Below are positions 8,708 to 48,535 of a stretch of DNA of 64,000 nt, piece by piece. The stretch is from a virus (Duplodnaviria > Caudoviricetes), in IMG/VR virus record IMGVR_UViG_3300031853_000039, positions 178-64,177 of that record; one strand, 5' to 3'. A model generated the notes under the pieces. That model was not told where the DNA came from. It saw only the letters and a program-made list of their open reading frames with translations, and searched no databases. Within the stretch, counting starts at the first letter, position 1; every line of letters begins with the position of its first letter. The position numbers and the translations under genes are program-made.

Positions 8708-8715
8708 TTCATAGT

Positions 8716-8786
8716 AGCGGTATAGCCAAATGGTAAGGCAACGGACTTTGACTTCGTTAGTGGTGGTTCGATTCCACCTACCGCTG
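8716..8786 (+). tRNA. tRNA-Gln (anticodon TTG), CCA not encoded
   Basis: Acceptor AGCGGTA/TACCGCT, D arm GCC..GGC, anticodon stem ACGGA/TTCGT with loop CT-TTG-AC, T arm GGTGG-TTCGATT-CCACC, G73. Confidence 0.92.
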
Positions 8787-8793
8787 GGGCTTT

Positions 8794-23532: not shown

Positions 23533-23671
23533 GGATAACAATGCCAACAAGCATTTTATCATATAATTTCGACTAGCCTAAAGTCAGATAAACAAAGGCA
23601 CATTCAAGCGCAGAAGTGGGTAGTGCGCATTTACAAATCAACCACAGTAAAAAGAATGTAAGGAGATACTT

Positions 23672-45419: not shown

Positions 45420-46274
45420 ATGATTGGTATATATGGTATAAAAAATAACTTCAATGAAAATATTTATATAGGACAGGCAATAGACATAGAAAACAGATGG
45501 AAGTGTCATAAAAGTGCTCTAAACAATAACAAACATCAAAATTCAAGACTTCAAAATGCTTGGAATAAATATGGTAAAGATAATTTTGTATTTATAGTTT
45601 TAGACCAATGTGAAGAGAGCGAGTTGACGAAACGAGAACAATATTGGATTGATTATTATGGGGGTATAAATTCTTCTAAAACTTACAATTTCAAAGAAGC
45701 AGGAAGTAAAGGAAGATTATCAAATGCTACAAAACAAAAAATAAGTCAAAAACAAAAAGGAGTACCTGAACCTCCTGGAAGAAAAGTATCAAAAGAAGGT
45801 AGATTAAGTTTATCGAAAGCACATAAAGGAATTAGACCTTCTTCACAAACAAGATTAAAAATGTCACAATCTCAAAAAGGTAGAAAACAAACAGAAGAAA
45901 CTAAAATAAAGATAGGACAAAAGAATAAACAGAGATATATAGATAATCCTCAATTAAGAGATACAATTTCAAAAAGAATGAAAGGACGTAAGTTATCCGT
46001 CGAAACAAAAGAAAAAATAGGAGAAAGCAGTAGAGGAAGAAAATATGGGGAGGAGACTTCAAAAAAACATTCTGAAAGTTTGAAGAAAGCGTATAAAGAA
46101 GGTCGAAGAAAAACTGTGAAAATAACAGTAAATGATATAACTAAAACACAAACCGAGTGGGCTAAATTATTAGATGTTTCACATACTTCAATAATATATC
46201 AAAGAAAAAAAGGTACAGCAGAGTTGTATATTAGAAAAATAATAGAAAAAAAGAATATTCAAATTAGTAATTGA
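45420..46274 (+). mobile_element. free-standing GIY-YIG homing endonuclease with NUMOD3-like repeats
   Basis: MIGIYGI..IYIGQA..RWKCH..LQNAWNKYG..REQYWID..YN; repeats of (S/T)-x-ETK-x-K(I/M)S-x-x-x-KG. Confidence 0.9.
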
Positions 46275-47506: not shown

Positions 47507-47507
47507 C

Positions 47508-47536
47508 TTGACTTTTATTCAATCATGTTGTATAAT
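47508..47536 (+). promoter_or_regulatory. sigma-A promoter of the replication operon
   Basis: TTGACT-17-TATAAT. Confidence 0.8.
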
Positions 47537-47594
47537 TATTATTGTCAATAAAGTTGACACGTTGCGAATCCTTGGATGTGGGATTCAAAAAATA

Positions 47595-47701
47595 GGCTGA
47601 TAAAGTGTAGCGGACTTTATCATATAAAGCCACTAATACTTTATCAGTCAACAGACTGTTTTGATGGAACCGCTACTTCCTGATAAACAGTCTGTTTTTT
47701 A
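47595..47701 (+). ncRNA. structured 5' leader of the initiator gene (complementary 7-nt loops)
   Basis: Hairpin TGATAAAGT-GTAGCGG-ACTTTATCA and hairpin AGACTGTTT..GGAA-CCGCTAC-TTCC..AAACAGTCT plus T run. Confidence 0.75.
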
Positions 47702-47719
47702 CACTAAAGGAGATAAAAT

Positions 47720-48535
47720 ATGTCAGTTACAAGAGTACATAAAACAAAAGATTATACTGTAATGAGCAATTATCATTTCAAAGATAAAGAATTAAGTCTA
47801 AAGGCAAAAGGTCTATTATCACTCATGCTATCACTACCAGAAAATTGGGACTATTCAATAGAAGGACTTACTACACTATCAAATGATGGTAGAACAGCAG
47901 TAAAAACAGCATTACAAGAACTTGAAAAAAATAATTATTTACATAGACAACGAGTATATGAAAATGGTAAAATTGCTGATATAGAATACCATATTTTTGA
48001 AAGTCCTAAAGATTGTAAAACTTATAAAGAAAAGCTTAATGTAGAAAATCTACATGAAGAAAAACTATATGTAGAAAACAACGACAATAAAATACTAAAG
48101 AAATCAAATACTAAAGAAATAAATACAAATAATAAATTATTTGATACTAAAGAAAAGAGTAAACCTAAAGATATTCAAGAAATTGTAGACCTATACAATG
48201 ATATATGTGTTAGTCTACCAAAAGTAAGAAGTGTTACAGATAAAAGAAAGAAAGCTATACAGTCACTATTCAAAAAGGGATATTTCATAGACCAATTTGC
48301 AGAAGTATTTAACATAGCAAATAGTTCAGACTTTCTTACAGGCAAAAATGATAGAGGCTGGAAAGCTGATTTAGATTTCTTACTCAGAGAGGATAAGTTC
48401 GTAAAAACATTAGAAGGTGGTTATAGTTCAAACAAAAAACGCAATAATGATTTATCACATACTTTAGATTCACATGAACGTAAAGCAGAGTTCAAAAGGA
48501 GAGTAGAAAATGGAGAACATATCAAGGAATACTGA
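47720..48535 (+). CDS. replication initiator (N-terminal wHTH, C-terminal DnaD-like domain)
   Basis: DYTVMSNYHFKDKELSLKAKGLLSLMLSLP..LQELEKNNYL; FLTGKNDRGWKADLDFLL. Confidence 0.88.
   Translation: MSVTRVHKTKDYTVMSNYHFKDKELSLKAKGLLSLMLSLPENWDYSIEGLTTLSNDGRTAVKTALQELEKNNYLHRQRVYENGKIADIEYHIFESPKDCKTYKEKLNVENLHEEKLYVENNDNKILKKSNTKEINTNNKLFDTKEKSKPKDIQEIVDLYNDICVSLPKVRSVTDKRKKAIQSLFKKGYFIDQFAEVFNIANSSDFLTGKNDRGWKADLDFLLREDKFVKTLEGGYSSNKKRNNDLSHTLDSHERKAEFKRRVENGEHIKEY

What the first reader, a model, noticed from the sequence alone, without database searches (positions are those of the whole stretch)
47560..47722. Kissing-loop/alternative-helix RNA switch in the leader of the replication initiator
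Seen: hairpin 1 (47598-47622) has loop GTAGCGG and hairpin 2 (47654-47695) has loop CCGCTAC, exact 7-nt complements. Hairpin 2 is followed by a T run like a terminator. ACTTTATCAGTC (47638-47649) can alternatively pair with GGCTGATAAAGT (47595-47606), excluding hairpin 1. Known: plasmid Rep genes (IncI/IncB pseudoknot, pT181/pIP501 attenuators) are controlled by such leader structures and antisense RNAs. Inference: a cis-regulatory attenuator for the phage initiator, possibly copy-number control in a plasmid-like/carrier state, since no integrase is seen.
Basis: partly seen in the sequence, partly recalled or inferred. Interest (0 to 1): 0.76.

Follow-up and report, generated by a model that had tools for sequence, protein, structure and literature searches.

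The report
Kissing-loop leader RNA before replication genes
This rumen/gut phage starts its DNA-replication operon with a roughly 110-150-base folded RNA in which the tip of a 5' hairpin pairs base for base with the tip of a transcription-terminator hairpin; related phages keep this pairing through matched mutations, so it is a real RNA element, absent from Rfam, that most likely gates how much transcription reaches the replication genes.

Summary
Hairpin 1 (47598-47622, loop GTAGCGG), the terminator hairpin (47650-47696, apical loop CCGCTAC, T6) and the alternative long-range helix (47595-47606 with 47638-47649) all exist. They lie between a near-consensus promoter (47508-47536) and the initiator gene (47720).

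The same architecture precedes replication-initiator genes in about 18 sequence-distinct leaders of uncultured Clostridia-type phages, each with a different complementary loop pair. In one close family five loop pairs sit on a nearly unchanged backbone: 6 of 8 loop-loop pairs change on both sides and none changes on one side. G.U outnumbers A.C 46 to 5 in the helices, so this is sense-strand RNA. It matches no Rfam family.

It is an attenuator-like leader. However, I found no conserved antiterminator, no antisense promoter, and no sign of a plasmid state.

Best model (inferred): the kissing loop needs hairpin 1 and competes with the long-range helix. This competition sets read-through of the terminator, and the hypervariable loops act as a private address that could also work in trans.

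This scan has already noted the same kind of leader on other DNA (at least 19 genomes, mostly Bacteroidota phages). This window adds a Clostridia-type branch.

The parts
47508..47536 (+). Sigma-70/sigma-A type promoter, TTGACT - 17 nt - TATAAT; predicted start near 47543
   Evidence: 11 of 12 matches. Equivalent promoters with 17-nt spacers lie 6-58 nt upstream of the P1 strand in 15 of 17 related leaders.
47543..47559 (+). 5'-terminal hairpin / inverted repeat TGTCAA-N5-TTGACA at the predicted transcript start (5' stabiliser or operator)
   Evidence: the only exact copy in the window. A relative in run X5 carries changes on both arms that keep five pairs.
47566..47586 (+). Second 5' hairpin, GAATCC-N9-GGATTC; not part of the conserved core
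   Evidence: The 47540-47593 stretch diverges or is replaced in relatives, while 47594-47715 stays identical.
47595..47606 (+). a1: shared 5' strand, used by either H1 (47598-47606) or the long-range helix P1 (47595-47606)
47598..47622 (+). H1: local 9-bp hairpin presenting loop L1, GTAGCGG (47607-47613)
   Evidence: In every relative H1 closes exactly around the complementary 6-9 nt.
47638..47649 (+). b2: 3' strand of P1 (12 bp with a1, one G.U). It ends 0 nt before the terminator.
   Evidence: P1 is in the MFE fold of nearly all of the 15 leaders folded (not evident in L027). The P1-terminator gap is 0-8 nt.
47650..47696 (+). Intrinsic terminator hairpin: 12-bp lower stem, 4x4 internal loop, 4-bp upper stem, 7-nt loop L2 CCGCTAC (47670-47676)
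   Evidence: -18.6 kcal/mol.
47695..47700 (+). T6 (U-tract) of the terminator
   Evidence: Every related leader has a T-run here.
47707..47722 (+). Shine-Dalgarno AAGGAG and ATG of the initiator. There is no room for a separate promoter, so expression from the 47508 promoter needs read-through.
47720..48535 (+). Replication initiator (HTH_36; PHROG 'replication initiation O-like'), followed by a DnaC-like loader, DnaB helicase and primase

Best explanation
The region is a promoter-proximal, sense-strand leader RNA that acts as a transcription gate for the replication operon (initiator, DnaC-like loader, DnaB, primase). Transcription from the 47508 promoter first makes hairpin H1, which displays loop L1. 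When strand b2 appears it can displace H1's 3' strand and form the longer helix P1, which is the ground state. Then comes a strong intrinsic terminator whose apical loop L2 is the exact complement of L1. Shown: the L1-L2 pairing, H1, P1 and the terminator are all conserved by covariation. The helices carry the G.U signature of sense-strand RNA. No terminator arm has a conserved alternative partner. Inferred: a 6-9-bp kissing complex between H1 and the tip of the nascent terminator hairpin is possible only while H1 exists, because P1 abuts the terminator and rules it out sterically. That complex delays completion of the lower terminator stem, as proposed for the guanidine-IV riboswitch, so RNA polymerase reads on into the initiator gene and across the iteron-like repeats inside it. 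P1 formation erases the kissing-competent state and gives termination. Also inferred: because the loops are hypervariable but always matched, they work as a private address. Accumulated leader RNAs, which expose L2 on the stable terminator hairpin, could occupy L1 of nascent leaders in trans and so feed back on read-through. The direction of the effect (kissing favours read-through or termination) is not established.
For: Anatomy and fold. A promoter lies directly upstream in 15 of 17 leaders, with the -10 box 6-10 nt from the P1 strand in 7 of them. Unbiased census: among 41 non-redundant initiator-upstream regions with a single-hairpin terminator, 12 have a perfect complement of 7 nt or more between the terminator tip and the 92 nt upstream, against 3.3% for non-cognate pairs; L1 always lies 36-56 nt before the terminator. 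About 18 different loop pairs are seen. Close family A7: 6 of 8 kissing pairs change on both sides, none on one side, 7 of 8 are Watson-Crick in all 9 rows, and sliding the register destroys the signal. L025 vs L101 are 88% identical, with three double changes confined to the loops. Kissing columns have pi 0.41, against 0.05-0.14 in stems and 0.34 at unpaired sites. RNA strand: 46 G.U-type against 5 A.C-type pairs when both are allowed equally. Not protein sites: L255 and L260 encode a 100% identical first protein but carry different loop pairs, and one loop pair precedes different initiator types (HTH_36, Phage_rep_org_N, DnaD-like). Bistability: E(H1) + E(loop duplex) - E(P1) lies within +/-4.2 kcal/mol in 14 of 15 leaders. 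A straight H1-kiss-terminator stack would stretch the linker to a median 60% of its contour length. Precedent for a kissing loop that hinders a terminator: PMC11611296. Core conservation: 47594-47715 is identical in relatives whose upstream 50 nt diverge.
Against: There are no expression data, so the transcript ends and the termination efficiency are unmeasured. No conserved antiterminator exists, so any effect of the kissing loop on termination rests on steric and kinetic argument. The linker is long enough (23-42 nt) that the kissing complex and the full terminator could coexist, especially in L027, L031 and L003. The energy balance uses a crude duplex estimate for the kissing complex. b2 is transcribed before L2, so P1 may form before a cis kissing complex can. 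The loops have no conserved ligand pocket, so no small-molecule input is evident. Most relatives of this initiator have other leaders or none.
Confidence: 0.5

Rival explanations
1. The main role is in trans. The terminated leader is a small RNA whose terminator loop L2 binds L1 of nascent leaders from the same or a related phage (a same-strand 'antisense' RNA like P4 CI or P1/P7 c4). This would give dosage control of the replication genes, or exclusion of and escape from kin. The cis complementarity is simply a consequence of regulator and target sharing one transcript.
For: The loops evolve at or above the rate of unpaired sites yet stay perfectly matched, while stems are 3-10 times more conserved; this is the pattern of specificity determinants. 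Five addresses sit on one backbone, and both loops move together in recombinants L256 and L260. The ground state P1 + terminator leaves L2 exposed on a stable hairpin. The promoter-to-terminator unit looks like an sRNA gene.
Against: No third target site lies near the RBS or start codon, and there are no extra loop copies in the genome beyond chance. With no antiterminator, what trans binding would change is unknown. This phage shows no lysogeny genes, so classical immunity does not apply. Fast loop turnover could also reflect avoidance of cross-talk, or module shuffling.
Confidence: 0.25
2. The kissing loop helps rather than hinders. It nucleates or locks the terminator hairpin, or compacts and stabilises the RNA, making a tight constitutive stop or insulator. 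Replication genes are then expressed only by leak-through or by polymerase modified elsewhere.
For: The terminator forms in both predicted states and nothing competes with its arms. The terminator hairpins are long, with large apical parts. The upstream ORF ends 2 nt before the -35 box, so transcripts from upstream also enter the leader.
Against: This does not explain why a mutually exclusive P1/H1 pair is conserved in nearly all members with balanced energies. It also does not explain why essential replication genes would sit behind an unregulated strong stop without a promoter of their own.
Confidence: 0.15
4. It is a DNA-level feature: inverted protein-binding sites about six helical turns apart, or a folded single-stranded origin signal.
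For: The kissing pairs are strictly Watson-Crick, as inverted DNA repeats would be. L1-L2 spacing clusters at 56-67 bp. Iteron-like repeats lie 330-450 bp downstream.
Against: There is a strand-asymmetric G.U excess in all flanking helices (46 vs 5). A promoter is placed so that transcription starts at the structure, and a U-tract follows. Loop pairs do not track the downstream DNA-binding protein: the same protein occurs with different loops, and the same loops with different proteins.
Confidence: 0.03

Closest known systems
Guanidine-IV (mepA motif) riboswitch
   Same: An upstream hairpin loop forms a kissing loop with the loop of a hairpin that is the upper part of an intrinsic terminator. 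Kissing and full terminator formation compete through linker geometry, and the kissing state gives read-through (PMC11611296).
   Different: The guanidine-IV loops are conserved and form a ligand pocket, and the element precedes guanidine-export genes. Here the loops are hypervariable, no ligand pocket is evident, a third element (P1) competes with the first hairpin, the genes are phage replication genes, and Rfam gives no match.
Satellite phage P4 CI RNA (seqB) with seqA/seqC, and P1/P7 c4 RNA (Rfam C4, c4-a1b1)
   Same: Regulator and target lie on the same strand and in the same leader transcript ahead of replication or antirepressor genes. Short complementary segments covary and define specificity, and the outcome is premature termination (my own knowledge of these systems).
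   Different: CI and c4 are RNase P-processed cloverleaf-like RNAs that act through Rho-dependent termination or RBS occlusion. Here both partners are hairpin loops about 63 nt apart, one on an intrinsic terminator. There is no RBS site and no Rfam C4 match. Trans action is not shown.
Antisense-RNA attenuation of plasmid rep genes (pT181, pIP501, pAMbeta1)
   Same: The leader of a replication-initiator gene carries an intrinsic terminator just before the RBS. Loop-loop kissing is the recognition step, and alternative helices in the 5' part of the leader are involved.
   Different: Those systems need a countertranscript promoter and a preemptor that pairs with the terminator's 5' arm. Neither is found here. 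The complement of L1 is supplied by the sense RNA itself.
IncI-alpha/IncB repZ leader pseudoknot (ColIb-P9)
   Same: A hairpin loop in a rep leader pairs with a distant complementary segment of the same mRNA.
   Different: There the partner lies next to the repZ RBS and activates translation, coupled to a leader peptide and blocked by an antisense Inc RNA. Here the partner is a terminator loop. There is no RBS site. The only leader ORF (47576-47680) has no Shine-Dalgarno sequence, and by reading the printed leaders it cannot be conserved, because in several relatives the transcript would start only at P1.
phi29-family pRNA
   Same: Two loops of one RNA are complementary and covary between phages with little sequence conservation.
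   Different: pRNA is part of the packaging motor and is not a terminator-bearing leader of replication genes. There is no sequence or structure match in Rfam.

Membership tests
Any Rfam 15 family | Covariance-model score at or near the family's gathering threshold | tested here: not met
   (best hit 16.8 bits against a gathering score of 81; all E > 0.7). (the window has only a tRNA and GP20-a elsewhere). (13 related leaders, nothing relevant).
Intrinsic (Rho-independent) terminator | G+C-containing stem-loop followed directly by a U-tract, on the transcribed strand, downstream of a promoter | tested here: met
   12+4-bp hairpin, -18.6 kcal/mol, T6. The same holds in all relatives. Function was not measured.
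Guanidine-IV riboswitch (mepA motif) | Conserved loop nucleotides that form the ligand site | tested here: not met
   About 18 unrelated loop sequences are seen. 14 of 16 loop columns vary within one close family.
Guanidine-IV riboswitch (mepA motif) | Kissing loop between an upstream hairpin and the terminator-embedded hairpin | tested here: met
   (by covariation; not by structure probing).
Guanidine-IV riboswitch (mepA motif) | Association with guanidine export or detoxification genes | tested here: not met
   The downstream genes are replication initiators of three types.
P4 CI / P1-P7 c4 antisense RNA (RF01695 and c4-a1b1) | C4-type fold detectable by the Rfam model | tested here: not met
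   no hit.
P4 CI / P1-P7 c4 antisense RNA | Target copies of the complementary segment downstream, at an RBS or in the nascent leader | tested here: not met
   No L1 or L2 copy lies within 110 nt after the terminator in 14 leaders. There are no extra copies in the window beyond chance.
P4 CI / P1-P7 c4 antisense RNA | Acts in trans and defines immunity specificity | not testable with these tools
   Only the evolutionary pattern (fast, matched loop turnover) is compatible.
pT181/pIP501-type countertranscript attenuation | Antisense promoter and countertranscript opposite the leader | tested here: inconclusive
   Only a 9/12 promoter-like match lies on the minus strand (47647-47619), and such matches are not enriched in the region (8 found, 11.8 expected). 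No RNA data are available.
pT181/pIP501-type countertranscript attenuation | Preemptor segment able to pair with the terminator's 5' arm | tested here: not met
   mean z of linker/b2 against the terminator arms is -0.3 and -0.05. Individual cases only: L003 9 bp, window 5 bp.
IncI/IncB rep pseudoknot | Loop partner adjacent to the rep RBS, plus translational coupling to a leader peptide | tested here: not met
   (no site). (the only leader ORF lacks a Shine-Dalgarno sequence). In several relatives the predicted transcript start lies at P1.

The most novel reading that the evidence does not exclude
The leader is an address-coded 'self-antisense' riboregulator. Every transcript of the replication promoter carries both a lock (L1 on a transient hairpin) and a key (L2 on the stable terminator hairpin). 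The pool of finished leaders therefore reports promoter output or genome copy number back to nascent transcripts and sets replication-gene expression. Kin phages with the same address cross-regulate or exclude each other, which drives the rapid, matched turnover of the 6-9-nt address. That would be an RNA-only incompatibility or immunity code in phages that lack a repressor or integrase.
Probability: 0.25. Interest if true: 0.85.

Novelty: new variant of a known kind. Interest (0 to 1): 0.7.

Why it matters
Phage replication modules are usually thought to be controlled at the promoter. Here a compact RNA device with three competing elements (H1, P1 and a terminator-tip kissing loop) sits in front of at least three unrelated classes of replication-initiation genes in uncultured gut and rumen phages. 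It is not in Rfam, nor in the papers I searched. Its pairing 'address' is the fastest-evolving part of the element yet is never mismatched. This gives a directly testable case of an RNA specificity code, with orthogonal natural variants on one backbone. It is also a possible natural parts set for orthogonal transcription gates. If trans action is real, it would extend the P4/P1 idea of same-strand antisense immunity to a much wider set of phages.

Tried and rejected
- Rfam at permissive thresholds on the window and on 13 relatives: nothing.
- Exact or near copies of the window's leader in IMG/VR: none. A search with the H1 stems and a free loop found only chance hits in unrelated contexts. So the window's own sub-family has no loop variants to compare; relatives in other gut runs keep 47594-47715 identical.
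- A single-sequence covariance model (R1) was too weak to collect the family. I used my own scan and a MAFFT alignment of one close family instead.
- Classical antiterminator: not conserved. The window's 8-bp match between 47640-47647 and 47680-47687 (z -2.6) and the 5-bp CAGTC/GACTG match have no counterpart in relatives.
- A third pairing site at the RBS or start codon, as reported for other genomes in this scan: absent here.
- Extra targets of the loops in the phage genome: not above chance.
- Other copies of the leader in the window: none.
- RNA evidence: no RNA holder listed. The contigs laid cannot show transcript ends.
- Cultured phages with related initiators (Clostridium phage Maintenon, Bacillus phages phi4B1 and phBC6A52) have no intergenic leader before the gene.
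- Literature searches found no description of this element.
- L004/L267 (55-56% identical initiators) have P1 and a long terminator, but I could not find a clear loop-loop match there.

Full report
**What is there**

The window is nearly all of a 64,177-bp IMG/VR virus record. All genes lie on the + strand. The record comes from bovine gut metagenomes.

The intergenic stretch 47507-47719 lies between a 76-codon ORF and an HTH_36 / 'replication initiation O-like' gene at 47720-48535. That gene is followed by a DnaC-like loader, a DnaB helicase and a primase.

The stretch contains, in order:
- a near-consensus promoter, TTGACT-17-TATAAT, at 47508-47536;
- two small 5' hairpins, 47543-47559 and 47566-47586;
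- hairpin H1, 47598-47622, with loop GTAGCGG;
- a 15-nt linker;
- a second copy of H1's 3' strand, b2, at 47638-47649;
- immediately after b2, a terminator hairpin at 47650-47696, whose 7-nt apical loop CCGCTAC is the exact complement of the H1 loop;
- a T6 run, the Shine-Dalgarno sequence, and the ATG.

The minimum-energy fold uses the long-range helix P1 (47595-47606 with 47638-47649) plus the terminator, at z = -7.07 against shuffles.

**Is it more than chance, and is it RNA?**

The closest initiator relatives have leaders of the same architecture but different sequence:
- L003, 60% identical initiator, loops CCGCCC/GGGCGG;
- L268, 57%, loops GTGACGG/CCGTCAC;
- L269, 49%, loops GTCCAG/CTGGAC.

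I collected 240 loci encoding initiator relatives from IMG/VR, genomes and metagenomes. In an unbiased census of 41 non-redundant upstream regions ending in a single-hairpin terminator, 12 have a perfect complement of 7 nt or more between the terminator tip and the 92 nt upstream. The rate for non-cognate pairs is 3.3%. The upstream partner always lies 36-56 nt before the terminator.

In all I found about 18 different loop pairs. In each case a local hairpin closes exactly around the complementary 6-9 nt, and a longer alternative helix re-uses its 5' strand.

When G.U and A.C are allowed equally inside the helices, G.U-type pairs outnumber A.C-type pairs 46 to 5. The structure is therefore read on the sense strand, as RNA.

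A sigma-70-type promoter with a 17-nt spacer lies 6-58 nt upstream of P1 in 15 of 17 leaders. In seven of them transcription should start at the first bases of P1.

**The best natural experiment**

A pattern search recovered a close family (L025, L101, L049 and L251-L266). The stems are almost invariant, but there are five loop pairs:
- AATAACGG/CCGTTATT
- AGTGATAG/CTATCAC
- GGTGATGG/CCATCAC
- AGTGACGA/TCGTCACT
- AGTGGCTA/TAGCCAC

On the MAFFT alignment A7 the counts were as follows:

| Helix | Pairs | Pairs changed on both sides | Other observations |
|---|---|---|---|
| Kissing loop | 8 | 6 | none changed on one side only; 7 Watson-Crick in all nine rows |
| H1 | 11 | 0 | |
| P1 | 15 | 0 | |
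| Terminator | 14 | 3 | |

Sliding the register by one to three columns abolishes the signal.

Diversity in the kissing columns (pi 0.41) equals or exceeds that of unpaired positions (0.34). It is 3-10 times that of the stems.

The loop pairs do not follow the downstream protein. L255 and L260 encode 100% identical first proteins but carry different loops. One loop pair precedes HTH_36, Phage_rep_org_N and DnaD-like initiators. This rules out the idea that the two 7-mers are inverted binding sites of the initiator.

**What it is not**

- It matches no Rfam 15 family, either in the window or in 13 relatives.
- It has no conserved antiterminator. The linker/b2 segment is no more complementary to either terminator arm than shuffled sequence (mean z -0.3 and -0.05).
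- It has no pairing site at the RBS.
- There is no convincing antisense promoter.
- There is only one copy in this genome, and no further loop targets.
- The record shows no integrase, serine recombinase or ParB.
- A 35-codon ORF overlaps the leader. It lacks a Shine-Dalgarno sequence. It cannot be conserved, because in several relatives the transcript would begin only at P1.

**How it most likely works**

Shown: four conserved elements (H1, P1, the terminator, and the L1-L2 pairing); the mutual exclusion of H1 and P1; and the position of the terminator directly before an RBS that has no promoter of its own.

Inferred from geometry: a kissing complex stacks H1, the loop duplex and the terminator hairpin end to end. 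P1 ends 0-8 nt from the terminator base, so P1 and the kissing complex cannot coexist. With H1, the 23-42-nt linker would have to stretch to a median 60% of its contour length once the lower terminator stem is complete.

The energy of H1 plus the loop duplex lies within about 4 kcal/mol of the energy of P1 in 14 of 15 leaders. This looks like a balanced two-state device, though the estimate is crude.

The only described system with this logic is the guanidine-IV riboswitch. There, a kissing loop between an upstream hairpin and the terminator-embedded hairpin hinders completion of the terminator and gives read-through (PMC11611296).

I therefore take the following as the most likely mechanism. 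The kissing state gives read-through into the initiator gene and across the iteron-like repeats inside it (48024-48155). The P1 state gives termination. The sign could be the reverse.

There is no conserved ligand pocket, so the input is probably not a small molecule. The fast, always-matched turnover of the loops suggests that the pairing must stay private. That would be either to avoid cross-talk, or because finished leaders, which expose L2 in the ground state, act on nascent L1 in trans as in P4 CI and P1 c4. Trans action is not shown.

**Relation to earlier notes of this scan**

After reaching the above, I found that the scan has repeatedly noted kissing-loop, terminator-bearing leaders before replication genes and homing-endonuclease cassettes in other genomes, mostly Bacteroidota and Flavobacterium-type phages. 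These are unchecked AI notes.
- I took from them the guanidine-IV comparison, which I checked in the paper.
- I took the three-site variant, tested it here, and did not find it.
- The link to homing endonucleases fits my loci. L002 and run X2 have an HNH gene, and L262 has a DUF559-type nuclease gene, inserted directly behind the leader.

The present window adds a branch in phages whose relatives are prophages of Lachnospiraceae, Oscillospiraceae and other Clostridia.

**Verdict**

This is a real, conserved, uncatalogued structured leader RNA. Its mechanism is plausible but untested.

Noticed in passing
window 48024-48155: Iteron-like direct repeats inside the initiator gene: a 25-nt unit twice, and ATACTAAAGAAA three times within a 16-nt tandem. 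This is a candidate origin of replication, lying downstream of the leader so that read-through transcription would cross it.
   Followed up: no
L002 1157-1497 (and run X2); L262 5961-6605: Homing-type nuclease genes (HNH_3; DUF559/REase_MTES_1575) are inserted exactly between the leader's terminator and the initiator gene. They use the leader's RBS position and duplicate the RBS for the initiator.
   Followed up: partly
L045, L055, L059-L062, L066, L068, L070, L079, L080, L083, about 60-10 nt before the initiator start: A different leader type occurs before related initiators. The terminator loop holds CTTCCGCT, complementary to two downstream AAGCGGAG sites, the second of which is the Shine-Dalgarno region. 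This may be a terminator-loop anti-SD. No variation was available to test covariation.
   Followed up: no
L069, L076, about 45-105 nt before the initiator start: A third leader type: an 11-nt segment upstream (TAGGCATGAAG) is complementary to the apical part of a 22-bp terminator hairpin. This is a helix interleaved with the terminator, a classical antiterminator-like layout.
   Followed up: no
window 47540-47593 against 47594-47715: In relatives from other gut runs the 50 nt before P1 are heavily diverged (X5: 23 substitutions and 8 gaps) or replaced (X4), while the core leader is identical. This marks a sharp module boundary at the 5' edge of P1.
   Followed up: partly
window 47543-47559: A perfect inverted repeat, TGTCAA-N5-TTGACA, sits at the predicted transcript start and is unique in the window. 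It could be an operator as well as a 5' hairpin. The X5 relative changes both arms and keeps the pairing.
   Followed up: partly
window 23567-23669 and 8715-8787: A GP20-a RNA motif (RF02991, 57.8 bits) lies before a structural gene, and there is a tRNA-Gln(UUG) gene.
   Followed up: no
L256 and L260 against L254 and L251/L255: These are recombinant leaders. L256 joins an L254-type promoter to L251-type loops and gene. L260 joins an L254-type promoter and both loops to an L255-type terminator 3' arm and gene. The two loops always travel together.
   Followed up: partly
window 45420-46274: A GIY-YIG/NUMOD3 homing endonuclease gene lies directly after the SNF2 helicase gene, upstream of the leader region.
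   Followed up: no
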